Positions 121-29,340 of a DNA stretch of 32,000 bases are shown in pieces (the stretch's first letter is position 1; every line of letters starts with the position of its first letter). The position numbers and the translations under genes were made by a program. The notes beneath the pieces are model-generated. The model had not been told where the DNA came from. It saw only the letters and a program-made list of their open reading frames with translations, and searched no databases. The stretch comes from Phycisphaera mikurensis NBRC 102666. Its GTDB lineage: Bacteria > Planctomycetota > Phycisphaerae > Phycisphaerales > Phycisphaeraceae. The stretch lies in the NCBI RefSeq assembly GCF_000284115.1, contig NC_017080.1:1290001-1322000 (forward strand), in the 5' to 3' direction.

Positions 121-1539
121 TCAGCGGCCGCGGCCGCGGGCGAGCCGGCGGCCGAGCGTCCGCAACGCCTCGAGCAGTTCGGCGGTCGTGGCGATCACGG
201 GCTCCCCGGGAGCGGGCCGCAGCACGCCGCGCCGCAGGCGGGAGAGCTCCGAGGCTTCGCGCTTGCTGCTCCGCAGCAGGCCGCTGAACTCGGCGTGGCG
301 GGCGGCCTGCGTCAGGTTCTGCGCGACGCTGTACAGATCGACGGCCGGACCCGGCGGGTCGTACGCGTTCTCGAACACCGGCGAGGTCACACGGTCCTTC
401 CGCTGCATCCGGCGCAGGTCCTGCCGGATGCGGGAGGAGGACAGCATCTCCTGCAGCAGCTTGTCGAGCATGCCGCGGCTGTCGAAGGTCTCGCCGACGC
501 GGATGCCCGAGCCGAAGTCGACGAGGCAGACGCCGCTGTCGGTGATGACGAAGTTGTCGAGGCGGAGGTCCAGGTGGACGATCCGCGCCACCCGGTGCAG
601 CTTCTCCACCAGCTCGACGGCGCCGGTGGCGAAGGCGACGGCGCCGATCGGCGGGCCGCCGAGCCGCAGCCACGACATCTCGATCCGCTTGACGAAGCCC
701 CGCTCGTCCTTCTCGAGGTCGAGCACCCGGGGGAAGCGGCCCGCGTCCACCAGCTCGGGGAGGCGCTCCTGCAGGATCTTCAGGAAGGCCGCTTCGCGGG
801 TGAGAAACACCGGGAAGATCTTGTTGCCGAGCTTCCGGGCCGCCTGCTCCAGGTCGGCGTGCTTGGCCCCGCCGCCGCGTTCGGCGTGCCGGGCCAGCCG
901 CCGCTGGATCGCGGTCATCGTCGGCACGCGCTTGATGACGCGGAAGCCGCTGGGCTGGCCGGCATCACGGCCGAGGCGGACGTCGAAGGAGTGGTGGTAG
1001 AGGCTCGGCCGGTCCTCGGGCTCGTGCCGCACCTTCCGCCAGGCGCGGGCGGCGGCGCGGCGGCCGGGCCATCCCAGCACCGGGCCCAGCAGGCCCGAGG
1101 GCGCCAGCGGCCAGGGCGGGAGCGGGCAGGGATCGCCCTCGGCCAGCCACTCGCCGCCCGCGAACCCGGCCTCGCGGGCGGCGAGCGCCCGCCGGTTGGC
1201 CGCCGTCAACAGCAGAACGCCGCCCCAGCGCAGCCGCGCGAGCAGGGCGTCGGCGGGCACCGCGGCGGGGGCGGCGGCGACGTAGAGGTTCACCGCCGGC
1301 TCCGGGGCCTCGGGGTCGGTGGGGGCCGGCGGCGCGGCGGCGGCCGCGGCGGGAAGCCGGTGCAGGCGGGCGACCCGCTCGGGCCCGGCCTGTCCGGGGC
1401 CTCTGGTGGGCTTCCCGTTCAGGCGCGTGGCGACGGCGGCCGCCACGGCGTCGCGGGCGCGGGGGGTGCCGGTTCCGGCGACGCCGCCGGGATCGCCGCG
1501 GCGCTGCCCGTCGGCGGGCGTCTCAGGGCGTCCGCTCAT
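121..1539 (-). CDS. Protein-kinase-fold protein (Hanks/lipid-kinase-like catalytic core) with an unassigned N-terminal region
   Basis: The track ORF is 121..2202 (-), but only the part from ATG 1539 is free of the upstream gene. Kinase-fold signatures: FRVIKRV (candidate beta3 Lys), EAAFLKIL (candidate alphaC Glu), IVHLDLRLDNFVI (HxDxxxxN catalytic loop) and LVDFGSG (DFG). ATG 1539 overlaps the upstream gene stop (1523-1525) by 17 nt. Confidence 0.65.
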   Translation of the reverse strand: MSGRPETPADGQRRGDPGGVAGTGTPRARDAVAAAVATRLNGKPTRGPGQAGPERVARLHRLPAAAAAAPPAPTDPEAPEPAVNLYVAAAPAAVPADALLARLRWGGVLLLTAANRRALAAREAGFAGGEWLAEGDPCPLPPWPLAPSGLLGPVLGWPGRRAAARAWRKVRHEPEDRPSLYHHSFDVRLGRDAGQPSGFRVIKRVPTMTAIQRRLARHAERGGGAKHADLEQAARKLGNKIFPVFLTREAAFLKILQERLPELVDAGRFPRVLDLEKDERGFVKRIEMSWLRLGGPPIGAVAFATGAVELVEKLHRVARIVHLDLRLDNFVITDSGVCLVDFGSGIRVGETFDSRGMLDKLLQEMLSSSRIRQDLRRMQRKDRVTSPVFENAYDPPGPAVDLYSVAQNLTQAARHAEFSGLLRSSKREASELSRLRRGVLRPAPGEPVIATTAELLEALRTLGRRLARGRGR

Positions 1540-4519
1540 CCGCTCCGTCCGCGGGCTCCTGCCGTCGCTCCACGCGGGAGGCGGGCATCGACGAGGCGAT
1601 GTGCCGGTCGACGAGGCGGTCCAGCGCCGCCTCGTCGCTCGCGGCGGCGCGGGGCGGGGCGGCGTCGGCGGTGCCCGCCCCCTCGGACGAAGGGACGCCC
1701 GAGGCGATGCGCTCGGCGAGCTCCGCGGCGATCCGCTCGGGATCCCGCACTTCGGCTCCCGGTGCCTCCTGGGCGTCGTCGCGTCCCGCCGCGGCGGGAC
1801 CCGACCCGCTGCCCTCGCCGCTCGGGCCGTCTGCGTCCTCCTCGTCGCCGAAGCGGACGGCCGCGAGGACGTCGTCGAGCGCGACGTCCTCTTCCGAGCC
1901 CTCCTGATCGTCCCCGAAGCCCGGCGTCTCCGCGGCGGCCGCGGACGCCGCCTCGGCCTCGGCCTCGGCCGCGTCGGAACTCCCGATCCTCCGGGCCGCG
2001 GGTGCGAGCGCCGCGACGGCGGCTCGGTCCGCGGCGGTTCCGGCCGCGGGCGTGGCGGCCTCGGGCGGATCGGCCTTGGCCGCTTCCGCGGCGGGTCCGC
2101 GTCGCGGGTGGGCGGAGGAGCCGCCCACGGCGGCGGCGAACATGCCCGAGCCCTGGTCCTGCCAGCCCTGCTCCAGCGCCGCCCGCGCCGAGGCGGGGGC
2201 ACCGGGCCGCGGCGAGCCCGGGCGGCCCATCCGGTTCAGCACAGTGCCCAGCACGACCGCACCGCTGGCGCGCAGCCGGGCGAGGGCCCGGTCCACCGCG
2301 GCCTGCCGCTCGCCGCCGCTGACCACCAGCACGACGCCGTCGGCGGCGGCGGCGGCGAAGAGGGCGTCGAGGCCCACGGCGACGGCGGAGGTGTCGATGA
2401 GCGTGACGTCGTGCAGCGGCCGGGCTTCGTCCACGAGCCGGCGGATGTGCCGACCGGAGAGGCGGCTGCCCTCCAGCGGGCCGGGACCCGCGGGCAGCAG
2501 CGACAGCCCCGGGATCTTCGTCTCGAAGCACGCGGCCTCGAGCCCGTCGCCCCCGAGGAAGGCCGGCAGGCCGATCGGCTCGTCCGCCTCCGCGTGCTCC
2601 AGCAGGTCGGCGTCCTCGGGGTGCAGGTAGCCCATCCGCAGCGCAGCGGTCTGCAGGGTCTGCCGGTCGCTGGTGGCTTCGGCGTCGGGACGGTCCGCCC
2701 AGGCGGCGTCGACGAGGAGCACGCGCTCGCCCGCGGCGGCCAGCGACGCGGCGAGCCCGAGGCACAGCCCGGTCTTGCCGCTGCCCGGCCCGCTGCTGGT
2801 GACCGCGAAGGTGCGTCCGCCGGGCTCGGCCGCGGAGCCGGCGGCGCGGCCGGCCCGGCCCTCGAGCATCGCCCGCACCGCGTGCACCGCGTCGGCGAGC
2901 GCCGCGGCCTCGTCCCGGGCCCGCTGCTGCTCTCTCTCGGAGAGCGGGCCCTCGGCGCCCGTGCCCGCGGCCTGGCCGCGGACCAGCGGGACGGTGCCCA
3001 GAACGGCGACGCCCCGCGCCGACCAGGGCCGGCTGTCCCCGCGGGAGACGCGGTCGTCGGAGGCGAGGTACAGCAGCACGCCCAACGCGCCCAGCAGCGA
3101 GCCGAGCACCGCCCCGAGCGCGGCACCGCGGGGGCGCGCGTCCGCGACGGGCGTGGCCGAGGCTTCTCCCGCGGTCACCCGGTCGAGCGCAGCGGCGGGC
3201 AGGGGGGCGGCGCGGAGGCGGGCGGCGGTCTCGGCGGCGTTCTCCGCGGCGGTCTGCAGCTCCTGCTGTTTCCAACGCAGCGACTGCAGGGCCGATCGCT
3301 CGAGCTTCGCGACGGCCGAAGCCGACGCCGCCGCCCGGGCGTCGATGCCGGCGGCCGCGGCGTCCCGCTCGAGATCGGACAGGCGGACGAAGGCCCGACG
3401 CCCGTCCTCGGCCTCGACGAAGCGCGCGTCCTCCACCACGGCGGCGAAGCGGGCCGCCGCCGCGGCGGCCTCCCCCAACGACCCGACGAGGCCGCGGTTG
3501 CGGGCCGCCGAAGCCAGGGCGTCCGCGGCCGCCTGGGCCGCCCGGACCGCCGCGTCCTGGGCGGCGGGCTGCTCGCGGACGAGCGAGGCCGCGAAGAACA
3601 GCGGGTCGCGGGCCGACGCCCGGGCGTCCCGCACGCGGGCATCGGCGGCACGCCGCCGCTGCGCCGTGCCGGCCTCGGCGGCCGCGAGCACCGCGGGGTC
3701 GCTGCCCGCGGCGAGGCGGTCCTCCGCCCGCGCCACCTCCACGCCGTTCATCGCCAGCGCCGTCCGGGTCGCTTGCACCTGCGCCTCGGCCTCCCGCCGC
3801 GCGGCGGCCGCCGTCTCGACCTCGGCCGAGCCCGGCAGAGCGGTCTTCCGCTCGAAAGCGGTCGCGAGCGCCGCGGCCGATGCGGCCGCCCCGGCGGGGT
3901 CGGGATCCCGGACCTCCACCACGAGGCCGAAGGGCGGCCGGCCGCTCACGCTCGCCTCGATCCCGGCCCGGTCGGCCAGGTCGGTCAGGACGGCCGCTTC
4001 ACGCTGCAAGGTCTCGGCCACATTGAGCGCCTCCGCCGGCACGCCGCCCACGCCGCCGGCCACCGTCCGCGGCTGCAGCTCGACGCCGACCTCGGCGCCG
4101 AAGCGGGGCTCGCCCTGCAGGTACCCGATGGCCGCGCCGGGCACGGCCGCCGCCAGCGCCACGCCGACCAGCAGCGGCCACCGCTGGGCCGCCCGCCCGC
4201 AGAAGCGCCCCCAGCCGCCGGGATCGGAGGCGTCGTCCGCGGGCTCCCGCGGGTCGACCGCGGGCGCGGGATCGAGCGCCGCGGCGGGGGGCGCGGCATC
4301 GGGCCGGCGCGGGGCACCGCTCGCCGCGGGAGCGAGGGCGCGCGCGGCGTTGCCGTTGAACTTCCAGCGGGCCGGGTAGAGGTCGTCCGCGGATCGGCGG
4401 CCGTTGCGGCGGTCGGCGGGATCGTGGGTGTCGCTCAAGGTCGGCTCTTTCTCTCGGGGGAGGGGCCATCCGGGATCCGGATGCGCAGCGGGCGGGGAAC
4501 GGGGGCGGCCCGCCCACAC
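1523..4519 (-). CDS. Polysaccharide co-polymerase / BY-kinase-like P-loop ATPase (Wzc/GumC-like architecture)
   Basis: 998-aa ORF starting at GTG 4519, with an alternative TTG at 4438. It has a hydrophobic helix (WPLLVGVALAAAVPGAAIGYL), about 400 aa of Ala/Arg/Glu-rich helical region, and a second helix (ALGAVLGSLLGALGVLLYLA). A P-loop domain follows: Walker A VTSSGPGSGKTG, A' RVLLVDAA, B VTLIDTS. The long acidic/Ala-rich C-terminal tail contains no Tyr. Confidence 0.8.
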   Translation of the reverse strand: MWAGRPRSPPAAHPDPGWPLPREKEPTLSDTHDPADRRNGRRSADDLYPARWKFNGNAARALAPAASGAPRRPDAAPPAAALDPAPAVDPREPADDASDPGGWGRFCGRAAQRWPLLVGVALAAAVPGAAIGYLQGEPRFGAEVGVELQPRTVAGGVGGVPAEALNVAETLQREAAVLTDLADRAGIEASVSGRPPFGLVVEVRDPDPAGAAASAAALATAFERKTALPGSAEVETAAAARREAEAQVQATRTALAMNGVEVARAEDRLAAGSDPAVLAAAEAGTAQRRRAADARVRDARASARDPLFFAASLVREQPAAQDAAVRAAQAAADALASAARNRGLVGSLGEAAAAAARFAAVVEDARFVEAEDGRRAFVRLSDLERDAAAAGIDARAAASASAVAKLERSALQSLRWKQQELQTAAENAAETAARLRAAPLPAAALDRVTAGEASATPVADARPRGAALGAVLGSLLGALGVLLYLASDDRVSRGDSRPWSARGVAVLGTVPLVRGQAAGTGAEGPLSEREQQRARDEAAALADAVHAVRAMLEGRAGRAAGSAAEPGGRTFAVTSSGPGSGKTGLCLGLAASLAAAGERVLLVDAAWADRPDAEATSDRQTLQTAALRMGYLHPEDADLLEHAEADEPIGLPAFLGGDGLEAACFETKIPGLSLLPAGPGPLEGSRLSGRHIRRLVDEARPLHDVTLIDTSAVAVGLDALFAAAAADGVVLVVSGGERQAAVDRALARLRASGAVVLGTVLNRMGRPGSPRPGAPASARAALEQGWQDQGSGMFAAAVGGSSAHPRRGPAAEAAKADPPEAATPAAGTAADRAAVAALAPAARRIGSSDAAEAEAEAASAAAAETPGFGDDQEGSEEDVALDDVLAAVRFGDEEDADGPSGEGSGSGPAAAGRDDAQEAPGAEVRDPERIAAELAERIASGVPSSEGAGTADAAPPRAAASDEAALDRLVDRHIASSMPASRVERRQEPADGADERTP

Positions 4520-4525
4520 GCCAGC

Positions 4526-5746
4526 TTAAACCCGCGGCGAGGGCTCGCGAACGGCATTCATCGGTTCGCAGCGCTCTCCGCTCATCGGCCGGGCGGGGCC
4601 CGGTTCCTCCGGCCGCGCCCGCAGCGTCTCCTCAACGTCCGAGAAGAAAGCGCGGACCGCGTCCGCGTCCGGAAGGGCCTGCACCCGGTGCCGCAGGCGC
4701 GGCCACGGCTGCAGGTGGGCCGAGTACTTGCTGATGCGCTGGCGGAGCGTCCGCAGCGCAACGGCCTCCCCGCGGTGCCGCACCAGCAGCTCGAAGTGCA
4801 GCAGCACCAGCCGCGCCCGCTCCGCCCGCGGCAGCGGCGGGGGGTCGGCGCCCGTCGCCAGCCGCGCGGCGCAGTCGCGGAAGAGCCAGGGCTGGCCCAT
4901 CGCGCCCCGGGCGATCATCACCCCGTCGCAGCCGGTCGCCGCCACCATCGCGGCCGCGTCCTGCGGGGTGTCGACGTCGCCGTTGCCGATCACCGGGACC
5001 AGCGGGTGCTCCGCCTTCACCGCCTCGACCGTCCGCGCGATCCCCTCCAGGCGCACGCTGGGCTTGAACCGCATCGCGGTCGTCCGCCCGTGCACGGTGA
5101 TCGCCGCGACGCCCGCGTCGCACAGCCGCGGCGGCAGCGTGTCCGCCACGAAGGAGTCGTCGTCCCAGCCCAGCCGGATCTTCGCGGTCACCGGCACCTT
5201 CACCGACCGCACCACCGCCGCCGCGAGGGCGACGGTGCCCGCCGGGTCGCACAGCAGCTTCGAGCCGCCGTGCTTCTTGGTGACCTTGTCCACCGGGCAG
5301 CCCATGTTGATGTCGATGACGGCGGCGCCGCGGTCCTCCGCCCACCGCGCGGCCTCGCAGAGGATGCCGGGGTCGCTCCCGTACAGCTGCATGCACACCG
5401 GACGGTCCGCGGGGTCGGTGGCCGCCCGCCACATCGCCCGGTCGGCCTCACGGAGCACCGCGTGCGGGCACAGCAGCTCGGTCGAGGCGAGGCCGACGGC
5501 GCCGTAGGTCCCGTCGCCGGCGTCCCGCTCCCCGCCCCGGTCGCCGGGGGCGCAGGGCACGCCGCGGACCGAGCGGACGCACAGCCGGTAGGCCAGGTCG
5601 AAGTAGCCCGCAACGGGCGCGAGCAGCAGGTTCGTCGGCAAGACCACGTCGCCGATGCGCAGCGACAGCCGCCCGCGGTGCGGCGGCGCGGCGGCGGGGG
5701 CGGCGGCGGGGGCGGGGGGAGGCTCGGAGGCGGCGGCCGGGCTCAT
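4526..5746 (-). CDS. dus: tRNA-dihydrouridine synthase (Dus family)
   Basis: Family motifs LLLAPVAGYFDLAYR, MQLYGSDP, IDINMGCPV (catalytic Cys), VTAKIRLGWD, ITVHGRT, IGNGDV and VMIARGAMGQPWLF. ATG at 5746. There is a Pro/Ala-rich N-terminal extension. Confidence 0.9.
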   Translation of the reverse strand: MSPAAASEPPPAPAAAPAAAPPHRGRLSLRIGDVVLPTNLLLAPVAGYFDLAYRLCVRSVRGVPCAPGDRGGERDAGDGTYGAVGLASTELLCPHAVLREADRAMWRAATDPADRPVCMQLYGSDPGILCEAARWAEDRGAAVIDINMGCPVDKVTKKHGGSKLLCDPAGTVALAAAVVRSVKVPVTAKIRLGWDDDSFVADTLPPRLCDAGVAAITVHGRTTAMRFKPSVRLEGIARTVEAVKAEHPLVPVIGNGDVDTPQDAAAMVAATGCDGVMIARGAMGQPWLFRDCAARLATGADPPPLPRAERARLVLLHFELLVRHRGEAVALRTLRQRISKYSAHLQPWPRLRHRVQALPDADAVRAFFSDVEETLRARPEEPGPARPMSGERCEPMNAVREPSPRV

Positions 5747-5774
5747 CGCGATCCGCGGACCGTAGGCCCGCGAC

Positions 5775-5800
5775 CGCCGCGGACCCGGCGGTCCGCGGCG
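5775..5800. repeat. Tight GC hairpin carrying the CCGCGGACC/GGTCCGCGG motif: 11-bp stem, 4-nt loop
   Basis: cgccgcggacc-cggc-ggtccgcggcg, with a further direct copy of ccgcggacc at 5753-5761. It lies between the lipoprotein gene stop (5891) and the dus start (5746) on the minus strand. There is no U-tract. Confidence 0.4.
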
Positions 5801-5890
5801 CTTCCCCCGCTCCGCCGGCCGGGGGGCCCGGCGGGGCCGGCGGAGCCGGTGAGGCCTCTGCCGGCCGTCGCGGCGGCTGGAGGCGTTCCG

Positions 5891-8149
5891 TCAGGGTGAT
5901 CCCGGGTCGAGCAGGTCCTCCACCGCGGCGATCCGCGCGCTCACGCCGGGCTTCATCGCGGGACCCAGCAGCAGGCGCAGCTCGTTGAGGACGCGGCGGG
6001 CGCGGCTGCGGCGGCCGGCCCGGGCCTGCTCGTCGGCGACGTCGAGCAGCAGGTCGACCAGCGGGTCGCCCGCGGCGGGCTGGACCAGCACGCCGCCGGG
6101 GGCCGTGAAGAGGGCGCGGGCCACGCCGAAGGCCCGATCCAGCTGGTCCGAGAGCAGCGCCGCCTTGACGAATCCGCGGGTGGCCCGCTCGCGCTGGTCG
6201 TCGGAAAGCACCTCGGCGGGGGCGAGCTCCGCCGGCCCACCCGGGGCCCCGCCCGGGGTCGCCGCCGGCACCAGCGCCTCGAAGTCGGGCACCGCGAGGC
6301 GGGGCCGCCCGTCGGCGAGGCGCAGCTCGCCGCGGGCGAGCAGCAGCGCGGCCCGGGCGATCGGCCCGGTGCCGCCGGGCCGGCGGTCCAGCGCCGCGGT
6401 CAGCACCGCTTCCCGCAGCGCGGGCGCAGCGCCCGCCCGCTCCAGCGTGGAGGCCACGCCGGCGACGGCATCGGGGTCGGTCCGCCCGGCCGCGGCCACC
6501 AGCGCCCGCTCCCAAGCCACCCGCTCCGCCGGATCGGCCGGGGGGCGGGCGGCCAGGGCGAGCAGCGCAGGCGCGTCGCGGCCCCGGCGGCTGGTGGCGG
6601 TGATCGCCACCGGGCGGATCACCGGATCGTCCGCCCGCTGCGCCAGCGGCAGCAGCGGGCGGTCGGCGTCGGCCCAAGCCTGGGCGGCGGCACGCTTGAC
6701 CACGGGGTCGGGGTGGTCGATCCAGGCCCCGATGCGGGCGAAGTCGCGGTCGCCGCCGAGGCGTCCGAGCAGCGTGACCACCGCCGGCGGCGGATCCAGC
6801 GGGCCCTCGTCGGCCGGGCCCAGCAGCCGCCGGACCCGGCGCAGCACCCGCAGCCGCTGCGCGTCGCCGAGCAGGCCGGCCTCGGCCGTGGCCGCCAGCA
6901 CCGCCGCCGCCTCGGGCCCCAGCGCCGGGTCGTCGAGCAGCTCGTAGGCCGCCTCCACCGCCTGCACCCGCGGCTGCCGCGTCAGCAGGCGGAGGTCCGC
7001 GCGGAGCACCGCCGTCACCGCCTCTCCGCCCGCCGCGAGGCGGGCCGCCAGCAGGTCCGCCGCCGGGCCGTCGCCCAAGTCGCGGAGGAGCGCCGCGGCG
7101 CGGCGGCGGGTGTCCGGCCGCACCGCGTCGAGGTTGGCCCGCAGCGCCCGCCTCAGCGGCTCGTCGAAGCCTTCGCCGGCGGACAGCCGCTGCTCCGCGA
7201 GGGTCAGGCCCAGCTCCGCGAGCGGCCCGAGCTCGTCGCCGAGCAGGTCGGTCAGCACGCGGGGCTTGTCCGCCTCGCCGGCGACGCGGTACAGCGTCGC
7301 GTTGAGCGTGACGAGGCGGTCGACGAGCTGGTCGGTGTTGACGCCCGCAACGGCCTCCCGCCGCTCCACGTTGCGGAAGAGGCTGCGGGCCCAGGCCTCG
7401 GCGTCGAGCTTGCGGTTGTCGCGCCACCAGGTGGTCCAGGCCCGCGGATCCTCCCCGTAGGCGTCGATGCCCGACAGCGTGGCGAGGCTGGCGAAGGCCG
7501 CCGACCGCACGTCGCCGGGCCGGCGGGCGTCGGTGAGGGCGACCAGCAGCTCGGCCACGGGCCGGGTCCGCCGCTCGCCGAGCACCGCGATCGCGCGGTT
7601 CCGCAGCGGCTGCGGCGTGTCGGCCCGCTCGGCGAGGCGCATCAGCTCGTTCGCCACCCGCCCCCGCTCGTAGCGGGCGAGGGCGCGGCCCAGGTCGTCG
7701 AGCAGCGGGGGAGCGACGTCGCCCAGCCGCCGCATCAGCGGCTCGCGCATCGCCTCGGGCGGCGGCCTCCCCGGCGGCCGCGCCGCGATCGCCTGAAGCA
7801 CCGCCTGGTTGACCGCGGGCGTGCGGGCCGGCTCGACCGCCCATGCGAGCACCCGCAGCGCGTCCTGGCCGCCGTCCTCGAGCAGGCGCGTGGCGGCGGC
7901 GGTCCGCCCCGCGAGGTCGAGCCCGGCCGAGGAGAGCCGCCGGTAATCGCCGAGCACGCGCGACGAGAGCAGGCCCTCGTTCAGCCGCACCGGCCCCCGA
8001 TCGACCCGGTCGCGGCCGCAGCCCGCCGGCACGCCGGCGCCCGCGACCGCCAGCAGCGCAGCGAGCAGCGCCGCGTGCTTGCGTCGTGGCGGCGGGGTGC
8101 GGGGCATGGTGCGGGGCGGGGTGCGGGGGCTTTCGGCCGGCCCGGGCAT
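5891..8149 (-). CDS. Putative lipoprotein with HEAT/ARM-like alpha-helical repeats, function unknown
   Basis: The N-terminus ...RRKHAALLAALLAVAGAGVPAGCGRD has a charged n-region, a hydrophobic core and a lipobox-like AGC. ATG at 8149, alternative ATG at 8107. The body is Leu/Ala/Arg-rich with repeated helix-pair segments such as RNRAIAVLGERR and DPVVKRAAAQAWAD. High GC3 throughout. Confidence 0.7.
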   Translation of the reverse strand: MPGPAESPRTPPRTMPRTPPPRRKHAALLAALLAVAGAGVPAGCGRDRVDRGPVRLNEGLLSSRVLGDYRRLSSAGLDLAGRTAAATRLLEDGGQDALRVLAWAVEPARTPAVNQAVLQAIAARPPGRPPPEAMREPLMRRLGDVAPPLLDDLGRALARYERGRVANELMRLAERADTPQPLRNRAIAVLGERRTRPVAELLVALTDARRPGDVRSAAFASLATLSGIDAYGEDPRAWTTWWRDNRKLDAEAWARSLFRNVERREAVAGVNTDQLVDRLVTLNATLYRVAGEADKPRVLTDLLGDELGPLAELGLTLAEQRLSAGEGFDEPLRRALRANLDAVRPDTRRRAAALLRDLGDGPAADLLAARLAAGGEAVTAVLRADLRLLTRQPRVQAVEAAYELLDDPALGPEAAAVLAATAEAGLLGDAQRLRVLRRVRRLLGPADEGPLDPPPAVVTLLGRLGGDRDFARIGAWIDHPDPVVKRAAAQAWADADRPLLPLAQRADDPVIRPVAITATSRRGRDAPALLALAARPPADPAERVAWERALVAAAGRTDPDAVAGVASTLERAGAAPALREAVLTAALDRRPGGTGPIARAALLLARGELRLADGRPRLAVPDFEALVPAATPGGAPGGPAELAPAEVLSDDQRERATRGFVKAALLSDQLDRAFGVARALFTAPGGVLVQPAAGDPLVDLLLDVADEQARAGRRSRARRVLNELRLLLGPAMKPGVSARIAAVEDLLDPGSP

Positions 8150-8233
8150 CGGCCCGACGAGCGGCCGGGCGACAGGATCCGGCGGCCGCGGCGGGCGGCT
8201 TCTCGCCGGCTTCCGTACGCTCTACCTTGCCCG

Positions 8234-26127: not shown

Positions 26128-27549
26128 ATGCTGATGACGATCGATTGTCCCGCGTGCGGGCAGCCGCTGAAGGTGCCCGGCGAGGCCGCCGGGAAGCGCG
26201 CGAAGTGCAACGCGTGCGAGGCCCGCTTCGTGGTGCCCTCGGCGGAGGAGATGCTCGAGTCGACGGTGAGCAGCCTCGCCGAGGAGGAGCTCCAGGACCG
26301 CCGGCGCGGCCGGGCGGCGGCGGCGGCCCAGCGGGGCTCTCCCGCGGCCGCGGCGCCGGGCGGCGTGGCCGCGGCCGCGCGGCCGGCGCCGCCTGCGCCC
26401 GCGGACCGCTCGGGCGTCGAGGCGGCCGCCGGCGGCACCCTCGTGGGCGTCCCGGCGGTCGAGCCCGAGCCGTCAAGCTCGTCCACCGGCGACCCGCTCG
26501 CCGGTGCGCCGCTGACCATCGACAGCTTCGGCGGCAGCGCGGTGGGGATCCCCGCGATCGGCGACGGCGAGGCGGAGCCCGAGGAGGCCGACGCGCCCGT
26601 CGCCTACAGCCAGGACGTCGCGCCGAGCGGGCGGCGGCCGCACCTGGTGGTCCGCCGCGTGAGCGTCGACGGCGTCACCCTCGGCTTCGCGTCGGAGTGG
26701 CTCGCGAACGACCGTTTCCGCGGGTCGATGCCGGTCCGCGGCGTCTTCGGCGGCCAGCGGGAGCGGGCCCGCCTGAAGGCGCGGCCGATGGTCTTCATCG
26801 ACAAGGTGAAGGACCCGTCGCTGCAGTGCCGCCTCATCGAGATCCGGCACGAGTGCGAGAGCCCCGGCGAGGGAGAAGAGGGCCGCGTGTTGCTGCTGAA
26901 GAAGATGGGCAGGATCGCGGGCATGCGGAGTCCTTTCGACCTGCCCATGCCCTACTACGTCGACAAGGGCGAGGAAGCGCCCGCCTTGGACTGCCGGGTC
27001 CTCGAGAGCTCGTCCATCGCGAGCACGGCGATCTGCGAGGTCACCATCCCCCATGGAGCGGTGGCGGCGGACTGGATGGCGTCGGTCAATGGTGTCTGCT
27101 GCGAGGAGCTGGGGATGCTGCGGCGGGAGGTCGAACGCATGGGCGCGTCGGCCTGGTCGCGCCTCCCGCGGGACGTCCGCCAGCGGCTGGAACCCTGGTG
27201 CCGCTTCAAGCCGCGGGAGCGGTTCCTGGGCTACTTCAACGACCCCGACTTCACGAGAGCCGAGCGGGGCCTCGCCGGGGTGGTGCTCACCGACGCCCGG
27301 CTCATCTACCACCGCTTCCGCCGCCTGCGCGACGTGCCGCTGCACAAGCCGGTCACGCTGCACCTCCGCGAGGACGGCCCGCTGACCCGCTTGGCGGTGT
27401 CGTACGGCGGCAACCGGGCCAAGGTCGGCAAGCTGGCGACGCGGCGGGTCGGCGACTTCCTCGGGACGCTGCCCCCGGGCCACCAGCTGAAGCTCGACGG
27501 GCCCTCGCCCGTGGCGGCGGGGTCGGATCCGGACTCGGATCCGGACTGA
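26128..27549 (+). CDS. Zinc-ribbon protein with a conserved C-terminal domain of unknown function (paralog A)
   Basis: MLMTIDCPACGQPLKVPGEAAGKRAKCNACEARFVVPSAEEMLESTV is a CPxCG-X16-CxxC ribbon. An Ala/Pro/Gly/Glu-rich linker follows, then a roughly 300-aa domain from RRPHLVVRRVSVDG to TLPPGHQLKLD. High GC3. The start is chosen by alignment with paralog B, and GAGGG lies upstream. Confidence 0.8.
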   Translation: MLMTIDCPACGQPLKVPGEAAGKRAKCNACEARFVVPSAEEMLESTVSSLAEEELQDRRRGRAAAAAQRGSPAAAAPGGVAAAARPAPPAPADRSGVEAAAGGTLVGVPAVEPEPSSSSTGDPLAGAPLTIDSFGGSAVGIPAIGDGEAEPEEADAPVAYSQDVAPSGRRPHLVVRRVSVDGVTLGFASEWLANDRFRGSMPVRGVFGGQRERARLKARPMVFIDKVKDPSLQCRLIEIRHECESPGEGEEGRVLLLKKMGRIAGMRSPFDLPMPYYVDKGEEAPALDCRVLESSSIASTAICEVTIPHGAVAADWMASVNGVCCEELGMLRREVERMGASAWSRLPRDVRQRLEPWCRFKPRERFLGYFNDPDFTRAERGLAGVVLTDARLIYHRFRRLRDVPLHKPVTLHLREDGPLTRLAVSYGGNRAKVGKLATRRVGDFLGTLPPGHQLKLDGPSPVAAGSDPDSDPD

Positions 27550-27676
27550 CGCTCGCGACGCGGCCGCGGGCGCCGCCGGGCCGCCGCACCCCTGCCCGCT
27601 CGGTAGACTCCCGGTGCGGCGCACTCGCGCTGGCACCGCCCGCGGTTCTCGCGGGCCGATTCCATCGGAGAACGAG

Positions 27677-29068
27677 ATGCTGATGACGATCGATTGTCCG
27701 GCCTGCGGCGAACCTCTGCAGGTGCCCGAGCAGGCGGCGGGACGGCGGGCGAAGTGCAACCACTGCGACGGCCGCTTCGTGGTGCCCTCGGCGGAGGACC
27801 TGCTCGAGAGCACGGTCACCCACTTCGCGCTCGACGAGATGGACCAGCGCCGGCGCGAGCACCGCTACGAGGAAGCCGGTGGCTCGGGTGTGGCGGCCGT
27901 CGCCGAGGCGTCCGCCGCGGCGCGGACACGATCCGCCCCCCGCGAGCCCGATCTCTCGGGCGGCACGGTGGTGGGGATCTCCGCCGTGGGCCGCAACCCG
28001 GCGGCGGGCTCGCCCGGGGACACCGCCACCGGGGTGCCCCTCACCGTCGACCGCCTCGGTGGCTCCTCCTCGGGCGCCACGCCGGAAGAGGACCCGCCGC
28101 CCGCGACCGCGGGCGCGGCCAGCGACTACCCGCAGGACCTCCGCGCGGCCGCGGAGCGGCCGCACCTGGTGGTCCGCCGCGTCAGCCTCGACGGCGTGCT
28201 GCTGGCTTTCGACGCGAGGTGGCTGCACCACGATCGGTTCCGCGCGTCGATGCCGGTGCGGAGCGCCTTCAACGGCGAGGCCGATGCGGCGAAGCTGACG
28301 GCCCGGCCGATGGTCTTCCTCGACGCGGTGGAGGAGGCGGCGCCGCGTGCGCGTCCGATCGAGTTGCGGTACGAGCACGAGAACGTGCACCAGGCGACGA
28401 CCGCGGCGATGCTCGACTCGATCGGCTGTCTGCGGGGGGTGCGTGCCCCCTTCGATCGGCCGATCCTCTACTACGCCCACTCGGACGACGCGGTGCCCGC
28501 GCTCTCCTGCCGGGTGCGAGAGGTGGGCGACGAGCGGGACGCGCAGGTCTGCGAGGTGCTCGTGCCGCACGGCCGCGTGGCGGCGGAATGGCTCGCGGCG
28601 GTCAACGGCCGCTGCGGCGAGGACTACGCCAAGCTCGGCGCGGAGGTGGAGAGCATCGGCCAGACGGCCTGGGACGGCCTGCCGCAGAAGGTGAAGATGC
28701 GGCTGGAGCCCTGGTGCGCCTTCCAGCGCGGCGAGCGTTTCCTCGCCTACTTCAACGACCCCGACTTCACCTCCAGCGAGGCCGGCCTCGCCGGCGTGGT
28801 CGTGACCGACAAGCGTTTGATCTACCACAAGTACCGGCGGCTGCGGAGCGTTTCGCTGCGGTCCGCGGCCACGCTGCACCTCCGCCGGGATGGCGCCGTG
28901 ACGCGGCTGACGGTCACCGCCGGCGAGCGGCGGGCCAAGGCCGGGAAGATGCCGCACGCCAAGGTGGCGGACTTCCTCAAGACGCTTCCCCCGGGGCACC
29001 GGCTCGCGCTGGATGCACCGCACCTGGGCCTCTCGTCCCGTCCACCCGCCGCATCGTCGCACCCGTAG
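27677..29068 (+). CDS. Zinc-ribbon protein with a conserved C-terminal domain of unknown function (paralog B)
   Basis: MLMTIDCPACGEPLQVPEQAAGRRAKCNHCDGRFVVPSAEDLLESTV, a linker, then ERPHLVVRRVSLDG...TLPPGHRLALD. GGAG lies 6 nt upstream of the ATG. It is collinear with paralog A along its whole length. Confidence 0.8.
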   Translation: MLMTIDCPACGEPLQVPEQAAGRRAKCNHCDGRFVVPSAEDLLESTVTHFALDEMDQRRREHRYEEAGGSGVAAVAEASAAARTRSAPREPDLSGGTVVGISAVGRNPAAGSPGDTATGVPLTVDRLGGSSSGATPEEDPPPATAGAASDYPQDLRAAAERPHLVVRRVSLDGVLLAFDARWLHHDRFRASMPVRSAFNGEADAAKLTARPMVFLDAVEEAAPRARPIELRYEHENVHQATTAAMLDSIGCLRGVRAPFDRPILYYAHSDDAVPALSCRVREVGDERDAQVCEVLVPHGRVAAEWLAAVNGRCGEDYAKLGAEVESIGQTAWDGLPQKVKMRLEPWCAFQRGERFLAYFNDPDFTSSEAGLAGVVVTDKRLIYHKYRRLRSVSLRSAATLHLRRDGAVTRLTVTAGERRAKAGKMPHAKVADFLKTLPPGHRLALDAPHLGLSSRPPAASSHP

Positions 29069-29087
29069 GGCAGGTCGGCGACCTGCC
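29069..29087 (+). terminator. Hairpin immediately after the paralog B stop (weak terminator candidate)
   Basis: ggcaggtc-ggc-gacctgcc gives an 8-bp stem and a 3-nt loop starting 1 nt after TAG (29066-29068). It is followed only by ATTGG, so there is no real U-tract. Confidence 0.3.
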
Positions 29088-29122: not shown

Positions 29123-29173
29123 GCAGCCCCACGGCGGGTCGACGCCGCCGGTCTGCAGCCCCACGGCGGGTCG
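29123..29173. repeat. Perfect 19-bp direct repeat x2 (gcagccccacggcgggtcg) upstream of the tRNA
   Basis: Copies at 29123-29141 and 29155-29173. The 32-nt period is not a multiple of 3, so this is unlikely to be coding. The copies lie 95-145 nt upstream of the tRNA 5' end. Confidence 0.6.
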
Positions 29174-29267: not shown

Positions 29268-29340
29268 GGCCGCTTAGCCCAACGGCAGAGGCAGTCGATT
29301 TAAAATCGACCAAGTGCGGGTTCGAGTCCCGCAGCGGCCA
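29268..29340 (+). tRNA. tRNA with anticodon UAA (Leu by anticodon) but class-I length, atypical
   Basis: Hand-folded cloverleaf. Acceptor ggccgct/agcggcc with discriminator A. D arm gcc(c)-aacggcag-(a)ggc containing GG. Anticodon stem gtcga/tcgac with loop tttaaaa. 5-nt variable region caagt. T arm gcggg-ttcgagt-cccgc. No encoded CCA. Confidence 0.75.

What the first reader, a model, noticed from the sequence alone, without database searches (positions are those of the whole stretch)
26128..29068. Tandem paralogous zinc-ribbon genes with an unassigned, Cys-conserving ~300-aa domain
Two adjacent same-strand genes (473 and 463 aa) share one architecture. Each has an almost identical N-terminal head, MLMTIDCPACGxPLxVPxxAAGxRAKCNxCxxRFVVPSAEE/DxLESTV (an MJ0042/DZR-style CPxCG...CxxC ribbon), then a divergent low-complexity linker. 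The collinear C-terminal domain is identical at roughly half its positions by eye. Shared blocks include PHLVVRRVSxDGVxL, DRFRxSMPVR, ARPMVFxD, PFDxPxxYY, PALxCRVxE, CEVxxPHGxVAAxW, VNGxC, RLEPWCxF, ERFLxYFNDPDFT, GLAGVVxTDxRLIYHxxRRLRxVxL, LHLRxDGxxTRL and DFLxTLPPGHxLxLD. Four Cys and one His are conserved in the C-terminal domain, which could form a second metal or redox site. The GxxGVVxTDxRLIY segment looks like a bacterial PH/GRAM-like strand pattern. I cannot place the domain in any family I know. Stretches of 23-27 nt are identical at the DNA level (atgctgatgacgatcgattgtcc; cgcttcgtggtgccctcggcggagga; cggccgcacctggtggtccgccgcgt), which suggests recent duplication or gene conversion at the functional cores. 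The pair is divergent from an E1-like ThiF/MoeB gene and directly upstream of an odd tRNA. Any role as a sensor/adaptor pair is pure inference.
Basis: partly seen in the sequence, partly recalled or inferred. Interest (0 to 1): 0.75.

Follow-up and report, generated by a model that had tools for sequence, protein, structure and literature searches.

The report
Old tandem zinc-ribbon/double-PH gene pair
Two neighbouring genes of Phycisphaera mikurensis are old duplicates of an uncharacterised protein family found only in that bacterial class; each protein joins a small zinc-binding head to two PH-like binding domains, it is probably a non-enzymatic adaptor, and nothing ties it to the neighbouring genes.

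Summary
Gene A (26128-27549, 473 aa) and gene B (27677-29068, 463 aa) are 51% identical (E 5e-156). Both are annotated as hypothetical proteins of Phycisphaera mikurensis.

They belong to an undescribed family. An exhaustive search found 280 clusters at 50% identity, and every named member is from Phycisphaerae or Planctomycetota. Almost all share one architecture: a CxxC...CxxC Zn_ribbon_4-type head, an acidic helix, a disordered linker and a ~290-aa C-terminal domain. That domain has no Pfam, NCBIfam, PADLOC or PDB sequence match.

AlphaFold2 models it confidently (pLDDT >90 over most of it). Foldseek places it only weakly among PH folds; the best hits are double-PH modules.

- The Cys/His "second metal site" is not conserved across the family.
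- The identical 23-27-nt runs are what codon bias predicts.
- The duplication is old: A-type and B-type clades occur in other genomes, and copy A evolves about 3.5 times faster.
- Across the family the genes are singletons with variable neighbours.
- ThiF adjacency is confined to the closest relatives.
- Adjacency to the tRNA reaches about 40% identity, but that tRNA type is widespread without this gene.

The most likely role is a non-enzymatic adaptor. This is an inference.

The parts
26128..27549 (+). Gene A (473 aa + stop), the fast-evolving 'A-type' paralogue; BAM03270.1 / WP_014436489.1
   Evidence: ORF and translation. 100% identical to P0001 of P. mikurensis. A-type clade in the NJ tree. 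dN/dS against A-type orthologues 0.41-0.45.
26128..26238 (+). A: N-terminal zinc ribbon (residues 1-37; C7, C10, C27, C30)
   Evidence: PF13717 Zn_ribbon_4 at residues 3-34, E 0.011, below the cut-off. The four Cys are invariant in 126-131 family members. Four short strands at pLDDT 91-95.
26239..26337 (+). A: conserved helix after the ribbon (residues 38-70, 'PSAEEMLESTVS...'); acidic across the family
   Evidence: Helix 39-69 at pLDDT 85-94. Family consensus ExTVxxW. Median net charge -8 over 33 residues.
26338..26622 (+). A: disordered Ala/Pro-rich linker (residues 71-165), with a clade-specific GGT(L/V)xG(V/I) motif at 102-108
   Evidence: pLDDT below 50 for 77-147. Composition A 17%, P 14%. 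The motif is found in 14 of 139 members and in 0 shuffled controls.
26623..27102 (+). A: first PH-like half of the C-terminal domain (residues 166-325), with helical insertions
   Evidence: Strands 174-179, 182-188, 216-220, 275-279, 288-293 and 301-307, then helix 310-321, mostly at pLDDT >90. The best Foldseek hits are double-PH modules, all E >= 0.013.
27103..27198 (+). A: helical connector between the two halves (residues 326-357)
   Evidence: Helices 326-338, 340-344 and 348-354. W343 and W357 are near-invariant or invariant.
27199..27492 (+). A: second, canonical PH-like domain (residues 358-455). It carries the invariant E364, G381, G384 and the near-invariant R391, plus the GLAGVVxTDxRLIY strands.
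   Evidence: Seven strands (366-437) followed by the C-terminal helix 438-446. Single-PH matches: bacterial PH protein 3b77 (85 columns, rmsd 3.2, probability 0.92) and chain k of entry 7xti, an RNA polymerase II-nucleosome elongation complex (84 columns, rmsd 3.8). Conservation.
27677..29068 (+). Gene B (463 aa + stop), the slowly evolving 'B-type' paralogue. This is the type kept as the single copy in a syntenic relative. BAM03271.1 / WP_014436490.1
   Evidence: ORF. Exact match in the collection. B-type clade, 79% identical to P0008 and 75% to P0005. dN/dS 0.15-0.25. L005/L006 have only this type in the same carB-ThiF-X-tRNA-purK context.
27677..27787 (+). B: N-terminal zinc ribbon (residues 1-37)
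   Evidence: PF13453 E 0.0016 and PF13717 E 0.0045, both below their cut-offs. Alignment.
28145..29014 (+). B: C-terminal double PH-like domain (residues 157-446, collinear with A residues 166-455)
   Evidence: Alignment to A and to the family. No Pfam hit for either half at E <= 10.

Best explanation
These are two real, expressed-looking genes. They are ancient tandem paralogues of an undescribed, soluble protein family restricted, as far as named members show, to Phycisphaerae.

Each protein has four parts: a Zn_ribbon_4/MJ0042-type zinc ribbon, a conserved helix that is acidic across the family, a long disordered linker, and a ~290-aa module built from two PH-like beta-sandwiches joined by a helical connector.

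The most likely way of working is non-enzymatic. The double PH-like module would bind a ligand, either a protein segment or a membrane or other polyanionic surface. The flexibly tethered zinc ribbon would bind a second partner, or fold back on the module. The protein would then act as an adaptor or scaffold.

Copy B is the conserved, ancestral-type orthologue. Copy A is a diverged duplicate that is still under purifying selection. It has probably sub- or neo-functionalised, and may partner with B.

Shown: the architecture, the family, the fold class, the age of the duplication and the unequal rates of the two copies, and the lack of a conserved operon partner.
Inferred: zinc binding, the absence of catalysis, the adaptor role and any A-B interaction.
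For: Paralogy: 51% identity, E 5e-156.

Family size and architecture: 280 clusters at 50% identity with E <= 1e-3, of which 256 have E <= 1e-10. Most are 380-600 aa, with the domain at the C-terminus and a CxxC...CxxC head.

Taxonomy: every name attached to a member is Phycisphaera, Phycisphaeraceae, Phycisphaerae, Poriferisphaera, Algisphaera or Planctomycetota.

Zinc ribbon: PF13717 is hit in 52 of 65 members (best E 1.4e-7) and is above its cut-off in P0033 and P0143. The four Cys are invariant.

Structure: the model built from 65 sequences has pLDDT 84 overall and mostly >90 for residues 160-460. The second half has the canonical seven strands plus C-terminal helix.

Fold matches: the top Foldseek PDB hits are double-PH modules (Spt16M, Rtt106, Pob3M), Sec7-PH and DH-PH proteins, and a bacterial PH protein.

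No enzyme family or defence family matches. Longer members add only extra zinc ribbons and longer linkers.

Duplication: there are separate A-type and B-type clades. For the same pair of genomes, winA-P0003 is 54% identical and winB-P0008 is 79%. dN is 0.35 against 0.10, and dN/dS is below 1 for both.

Neighbourhoods differ between clades.
Against: No experiment or expression data were found.

Several invariant or near-invariant polar residues (E364; R198, D372, T388, R391) could equally mark a catalytic or metal-binding site, so an enzymatic role is not excluded.

Inter-domain contacts and an A-B complex could not be examined, because no coordinates, predicted aligned error or multimer prediction were available.

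Some neighbours are tRNA-related: the tRNA gene, pheT, and a PolyA_pol-family nucleotidyltransferase gene that may encode the CCA-adding enzyme. These hint at a different, RNA-linked role.
Confidence: 0.55

Rival explanations
1. The protein is an RNA- or tRNA-associated factor. It would act on, or be co-expressed with, the short tRNA-Leu(UAA) gene just downstream, for example in its processing, modification or use. The zinc ribbon and the basic second PH-like domain would bind the RNA.
For: The same short tRNA(UAA) lies on the same strand downstream of the family gene in the window, L001, L002, L005/6, L003, L007, L016, L017 and L019. The gap is about 30-200 nt in most of these and about 730-745 nt in L001 and L002. 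The outer neighbours differ.

Other members sit next to pheT (L009) or overlap a PolyA_pol-family nucleotidyltransferase gene, possibly the CCA-adding enzyme (L022).

The second PH-like domain of A and of B carries a net charge of +11.
Against: The tRNA is absent next to more distant members (L009-L014, L018, L020-L023).

Of 115 loci carrying this tRNA type in metagenome contigs, none encodes a family member. The same tRNA type is annotated in hundreds of phage genomes.

The positive charge of the second PH-like domain is not a family trait; the median is +1.

No RNA-binding family matches.
Confidence: 0.1
2. The C-terminal domain is a redox or metal sensor that uses its conserved Cys (and His) residues as a second metal or disulfide site. 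A and B would form a sensor/adaptor pair.
For: C289, C303 and C324 are invariant among the 13 closest homologues. C303 is Cys in 157 of 162 family members.
Against: Family-wide, C324 is kept in 130/163 and C289 in 110/162, where it is replaced by T, G or A. C358 is kept in 82/163 and is Phe or Tyr in 58, which fits a buried hydrophobic position. The His is kept in 16/162. No set of three or four ligands is conserved. The tandem pair exists in only three genomes seen.
Confidence: 0.05
3. The pair works with the divergently transcribed E1-like ThiF/MoeB enzyme, for example as targets or adaptors of a sulfur-carrier or ubiquitin-like conjugation system.
For: ThiF is divergent and adjacent in the window, L001, L002 and L005/6, even though the genes beyond ThiF differ between some of these loci.
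Against: Those loci are all close relatives (B-type proteins 74-79% identical). In the 40%-identity clade the upstream gene is a hydantoinase/oxoprolinase, and elsewhere the neighbours are unrelated.

The ThiF protein matches ordinary MoeB/ThiF adenylyltransferase models over their full length.

No ThiS/MoaD-like or JAB gene was seen between them.
Confidence: 0.04
4. One or both ORFs are not functional genes: either chance ORFs of a 74% GC genome or a decaying duplicate.
For: High-GC DNA gives many long spurious ORFs. Copy A evolves fast. No expression data are available.
Against: GC3 is 0.91-0.93, with a coding-type gradient across codon positions. Homologues form 280 clusters. dN/dS is 0.41-0.45 for A-type and 0.15-0.25 for B-type orthologues. 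Both frames are intact, and Shine-Dalgarno-like motifs precede both starts.
Confidence: 0.02

Closest known systems
MJ0042-type / Zn_ribbon_4 (PF13717, TIGR02098) N-terminal zinc ribbons of Myxococcota and Planctomycetota proteins
   Same: An N-terminal CPxC-(16)-CxxC ribbon of about 35 residues, followed by a low-complexity linker and a variable C-terminal module. PF13717 is hit in 52 of 65 family members.
   Different: A and B themselves score below the Pfam and TIGRFAM cut-offs: 16-17 bits against 30.3, and TIGR02098 11.5 against 20.9. The C-terminal partner domain here is not one of the described ones.
Eukaryotic double-PH modules of histone chaperones (FACT Spt16-M and Pob3/SSRP1-M, Rtt106)
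   Same: These are the best Foldseek PDB matches, aligning about 165-220 columns across two consecutive PH-like sandwiches. As in those proteins, a strongly acidic segment accompanies the module (median net charge -8 in the helix after the ribbon).
   Different: E-values are only 0.013-0.1, rmsd is 11-14 A, TM-scores normalised by target length are at most 0.31, and identity is 3-12%. There is no sequence similarity. Here the acidic segment is N-terminal and a zinc ribbon is attached. No histone-like partner is known.
Bacterial PH domains (bPH families, e.g. PDB 3b77 Exig_2160) and GRAM-type PH domains
   Same: The second half has seven strands and a C-terminal helix. It superposes on 3b77 over 85 columns at rmsd 3.2 with probability 0.9. 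It contains a 'G..G.v.T..RL.Y'-type strand pair; the resemblance of this motif to GRAM/bPH sequences is from my own knowledge.
   Different: There is no Pfam bPH or GRAM hit, even at E <= 10, for the isolated halves. No transmembrane segments flank the domain, unlike the bPH_2 proteins. The domain is fused to a first, insertion-rich PH-like half.

Membership tests
Zn_ribbon_4 / MJ0042-type zinc ribbon (PF13717, TIGR02098) | Two CxxC knuckles about 15-17 residues apart at the N-terminus | tested here: met
   C7, C10, C27 and C30 in A and in B. They are invariant in 126-131 aligned family members.
Zn_ribbon_4 / MJ0042-type zinc ribbon (PF13717, TIGR02098) | Score at or above the curated cut-off of the family model | tested here: inconclusive
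   A scores 16.1 bits and B 17.3 bits against a cut-off of 30.3. TIGR02098 gives 11.5 against 20.9. Homologues P0033 (33.1) and P0143 (30.6) pass, and 52 of 65 members hit at E < 0.1.
Zn_ribbon_4 / MJ0042-type zinc ribbon (PF13717, TIGR02098) | Binds one zinc ion | not testable with these tools
   Needs metal analysis of purified protein.
PH-like fold superfamily | A seven-stranded antiparallel beta-sandwich closed by a C-terminal alpha-helix | tested here: met
   In the predicted model only. Strands are 366-371, 384-388, 391-396, 399-404, 409-416, 419-426 and 429-437, followed by helix 438-446, mostly at pLDDT >90. Foldseek hits to PH domains have probabilities up to 0.96.
PH-like fold superfamily | Significant structural similarity to solved PH domains | tested here: inconclusive
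Curated bacterial PH / GRAM sequence families (Pfam bPH_1-6, GRAM) | A profile match to the family HMM | tested here: not met
   No Pfam family at E <= 10 for either half of A or of B. None in 65 members at E <= 0.1.
FACT/Rtt106-type double-PH histone-chaperone module | Two tandem PH domains in the fixed relative arrangement of Spt16-M, Pob3-M and Rtt106 | tested here: inconclusive
   These are the top-ranked hits, spanning about 165-220 columns, but rmsd is 11-14 A and TM-scores normalised by target length are at most 0.31. The two halves show no mutual sequence similarity (hhalign probability 0.3).
FACT/Rtt106-type double-PH histone-chaperone module | Binds histones or other basic chromatin proteins | not testable with these tools
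   No partner data are available.
ThiF/E1-linked conjugation or sulfur-transfer system | Gene linkage with the E1-like gene conserved across the family | tested here: not met
   ThiF is adjacent only in the window, L001, L002 and L005/6. It is absent in L003, L007, L009, L011 and L016-L023.
Known anti-phage defence systems (PADLOC) | A match to a defence-protein model | tested here: not met
   No PADLOC family at E <= 1 for A or for B.

The most novel reading that the evidence does not exclude
The C-terminal module is a true bacterial counterpart of the eukaryotic double-PH histone-chaperone module (Spt16-M, Pob3-M, Rtt106). Together with the adjacent acidic helix and linker, it would chaperone basic nucleoid or nucleic-acid-binding proteins in Phycisphaerae. 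That class belongs to the Planctomycetota, a phylum noted for eukaryote-like cell biology. The tandem A/B pair would then be a heterodimeric version, echoing the Spt16-Pob3 pairing.
Probability: 0.05. Interest if true: 0.8.

Novelty: new variant of a known kind. Interest (0 to 1): 0.3.

Why it matters
The family would make a new Pfam-type entry. It is a protein restricted, as far as named members show, to Phycisphaerae and usually present as a single gene at the loci examined, and it has no assigned function.

Its fold is confidently predicted. It pairs a tethered zinc ribbon with a double PH-like module, an arrangement described mainly in eukaryotic chaperones and signalling proteins.

Knowing its partner could shed light on cell biology specific to Phycisphaerae, which is poorly understood. 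As it stands, this is a well-delimited domain of unknown function rather than a new mechanism.

The checks also remove three attractive but unsupported ideas: a second metal site, gene conversion, and coupling to ThiF.

Tried and rejected
Searches and tools that failed or gave too little:
- The first AlphaFold2 run, with 13 sequences, was poor (pLDDT 59). It was replaced by a run with 65 sequences.
- The search for related loci rejected the diverse alignment. The run with the close alignment gave 9 loci.
- The consensus promoter and terminator scan found nothing. The intergenic folds are only mildly more stable than shuffled controls, z about -2.
- Literature searches for the proteins, the locus tags or a described short bacterial tRNA-Leu found nothing relevant.

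Ideas tested and rejected:
- Internal duplication of the two PH-like halves: hhalign probability 0.3.
- Informative domain fusions in the longer family members: they add only extra zinc ribbons.
- Gene conversion.
- A conserved Cys4/His site.
- Coupling between the tRNA and this protein. The first, strict tRNA pattern found nothing. The relaxed pattern found at least 115 such tRNAs, none with a family member nearby.
- Reassignment of the UUA codon: TTA codons in relatives align with L, V, F or M.
- A family-wide linker motif: GGTxxGV occurs only in the closest clade.
- A family-wide basic PH surface: the median charge is about 0 to +1.
Full report
OBSERVATION

The window is from Phycisphaera mikurensis. 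Gene A is 100% identical to BAM03270.1/WP_014436489.1 and gene B to BAM03271.1/WP_014436490.1. Both are annotated as hypothetical proteins and lie on a 3.8-Mb contig.

Gene A runs from 26128 to 27549 (473 aa) and gene B from 27677 to 29068 (463 aa), both on the + strand. BLASTP gives 242/474 identities, E 5e-156, collinear over the full length.

Both frames have coding-type composition (GC3 0.91-0.93). GAGG and GGAG motifs lie 8 and 6 nt upstream of the ATGs. The MLMTIDCP start is shared by homologues.

THE FAMILY

A word-indexed search found only 12 clusters. An exhaustive HMM search with a profile of the C-terminal domain found 280 clusters at 50% identity with E <= 1e-3; 256 of these have E <= 1e-10 and 147 have E <= 1e-30.

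Most listed members are 380-600 aa, carry the domain at the C-terminus and begin with a CxxC...CxxC head. Every name attached to a member is a hypothetical protein from Phycisphaera, Phycisphaeraceae, Phycisphaerae, Poriferisphaera, Algisphaera or 'Planctomycetota bacterium'.

Pfam, NCBIfam, PADLOC and PDB sequence searches give nothing for the C-terminal ~290 residues. This holds for A and B, for 65 diverse members, and for the isolated halves at E <= 10.

The head is a Zn_ribbon_4/MJ0042-type ribbon. PF13717 is sub-threshold in A and B (16-17 bits against 30.3), but it is hit in 52 of 65 members and exceeds its cut-off in P0033 and P0143. The four Cys are invariant. Longer members add only further ribbons and longer linkers.

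STRUCTURE

With a 65-sequence alignment, AlphaFold2 gives pLDDT 84 overall:
- Zinc ribbon: pLDDT 91-95.
- A helix at residues 39-69.
- A disordered linker: pLDDT below 50 for residues 77-147.
- Residues 160-460: pLDDT mostly above 90.

The second half (358-455) has seven strands and a C-terminal helix, which is the PH topology. The first half (166-325) is a strand-rich sandwich with helical insertions that also ends in a helix. Three short helices connect the two halves.

(a) Second metal or redox site. Over about 163 family members, C303 is Cys in 157/162, C324 in 130/163 and C289 in 110/162. C358 is Cys in 82/163 and Phe or Tyr in 58. The His is kept in 16/162. No conserved three- or four-ligand set exists. 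The invariant positions are F187, W357, E364, G381 and G384; P202, R198, R391, T388 and D372 are nearly so.

(b) Recent duplication or gene conversion. The identical runs of 27, 27, 24 and 23 nt are real. However, among identical residues the same codon is used in 0.63 of cases (0.73 in the head), against 0.59 expected from the genes' own codon bias.

An NJ tree separates an A-type clade (winA, P0003, P0007) from a B-type clade (winB, P0008, P0162, P0005, P0002, P0004, P0006). The duplication therefore predates the split of P. mikurensis from at least two other genomes.

For the same pair of genomes, the A-type orthologues are 54% identical and the B-type 79%. dN is 0.35 against 0.10. dN/dS is 0.41-0.45 for winA against its A-type orthologues (0.23 between L001A and L002A) and 0.15-0.25 for B-type. 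Both copies are under purifying selection, and A is the faster, diverging one.

(c) Conserved pair and neighbourhood.
- Tandem copies occur only in the window, L001 and L002.
- L005/L006 have the same carB-ThiF-X-tRNA-purK-coaC-rpoZ synteny as the window, but with a single B-type gene.
- The 40%-identity clade is a singleton lying downstream of a hydantoinase/oxoprolinase gene.
- More distant members sit beside pheT, a sigma-54 activator, a PLP-dependent enzyme and an alkaline phosphatase, a squalene/phytoene synthase and a CYTH protein, enolase, an Rsm22-like methyltransferase and a PolyA_pol-family nucleotidyltransferase (possibly the CCA-adding enzyme), or a methyltransferase.
- The ThiF neighbour is an ordinary MoeB/ThiF adenylyltransferase. 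The rest of the window neighbourhood is housekeeping: purK, coaC and rpoZ, and carB by the translation and the orthologous Pfam hits.

THE tRNA

The gene at 29268-29340 is a bona fide tRNA (Rfam 61.5 bits). Its anticodon is UAA and its variable loop has only 5 nt.

The same tRNA follows the family gene in the window, L001, L002, L005/6, L003, L007, L016, L017 and L019, although the outer flanks differ. It shows compensatory stem changes between loci. It is absent beside the more distant members.

A scan from the tRNA side found at least 115 such short tRNA(UAA) genes in metagenome contigs. None had a family member nearby. Similar sequences are annotated as tRNA-Leu in 333 phage records. The adjacency is therefore best read as lineage-level synteny, possibly a shared transcript, and not as functional coupling.

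MECHANISM

Nothing points to catalysis or to a pathway. The conserved features are a metal-binding ribbon, an acidic helix (median net charge -8), a flexible linker and two PH-like sandwiches. PH-like domains are, from general knowledge, typically ligand-, peptide- or lipid-binding modules.

I therefore favour a soluble adaptor or scaffold with two binding ends, with B as the ancestral-type copy and A as a diverged partner or variant. This reading is inferred, not shown.

Rivals are a tRNA/RNA-linked factor (0.10), a Cys-based sensor (0.05), a ThiF-linked system (0.04) and non-genes (0.02).

COMPARISON AND NOVELTY

The components are known kinds: a Zn_ribbon_4 head and the PH-like fold. The sequence family and this combination are undescribed in the libraries searched. 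I rate it a new variant of a known kind, of modest interest (0.3).

The most novel reading not excluded is a bacterial analogue of the FACT/Rtt106 double-PH chaperone module (probability about 0.05).

Noticed in passing
window 29268-29340 (+); also L001 12424-12496, L005 9482-9554, L003 9459-9533, L007 6734-6807, and L024-L143: The tRNA with anticodon UAA is class-I shaped: 73-77 nt with a 5-nt variable loop. It keeps bacterial tRNA-Leu hallmarks: A73, A14-A15, U48, G18G19, a 3-bp D-stem with a 13:22 mismatch, and the A36A37A38 motif.

One metagenome example (L024) resembles E. coli tRNA-Leu(UAA) in the acceptor, anticodon and T arms; this comparison is from my memory of the leuZ sequence.

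A review (PMC9976931) states that tRNA-Leu has a long variable arm everywhere except in animal mitochondria. Yet a capped metagenome scan found 101 distinct short versions, at locus GC contents of 34-75% and some inside phage-like tRNA arrays. In addition, 333 phage records hold similar sequences, annotated as tRNA-Leu in the listed records that carry annotation.
   Followed up: partly
window genes overall; L003 and L007 genes: The codon this tRNA reads best, UUA, is absent from 7608 codons of window genes; UUG occurs 20 times. In relatives with 63% GC, TTA is rare and aligns with L, V, F or M in orthologues, so there is no sign of codon reassignment.
   Followed up: yes
window 29069-29087 and 29123-29141 / 29155-29173: Directly after the stop codon of B there is a perfect 9-bp inverted repeat (GGCAGGTCG-G-CGACCTGCC). 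It is followed by a 19-nt direct repeat (GCAGCCCCACGGCGGGTCG) that occurs twice, 32 nt apart, upstream of the tRNA. The spacer folds somewhat better than shuffled controls (z about -2.3).
   Followed up: partly
L001 10085-11695 (P0008) and L002 10912-11652 (P0162): In two relatives from one metagenome assembly, the B-type copies look damaged. P0008 has an unrelated C-terminal tail after '...KAGKMPHAR', and P0162 is a 246-aa fragment. These may be true decay or indel errors of the assembly; this was not resolved.
   Followed up: no
L022 3547-5184 / 5165-6487; L009 3578-5590 / 6001-7164: One distant family member overlaps by about 20 nt a downstream, same-strand gene with PolyA_pol head and RNA-binding domains, possibly the CCA-adding enzyme. 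Another lies downstream of pheT. Together with the tRNA adjacency, this gives a weak tRNA-related theme among otherwise unrelated neighbourhoods.
   Followed up: partly
window 1000-8200: This stretch has very high GC (0.78-0.81, against about 0.70-0.74 elsewhere in the window). It carries several long minus-strand ORFs (1523-4525, 4526-5890, 5891-8221) with GC1 of 0.77-0.86. They were not examined.
   Followed up: no
window residues A 102-108 (26431-26451) and B 95-101: A short motif, GGT(L/V)xG(V/I), sits inside the otherwise disordered linker. It is conserved only in the Phycisphaera-proximal clade (14 of 139 members, 0 in shuffled controls). The model shows it as a tiny strand pair at low confidence. 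It could be a docking peptide.
   Followed up: partly
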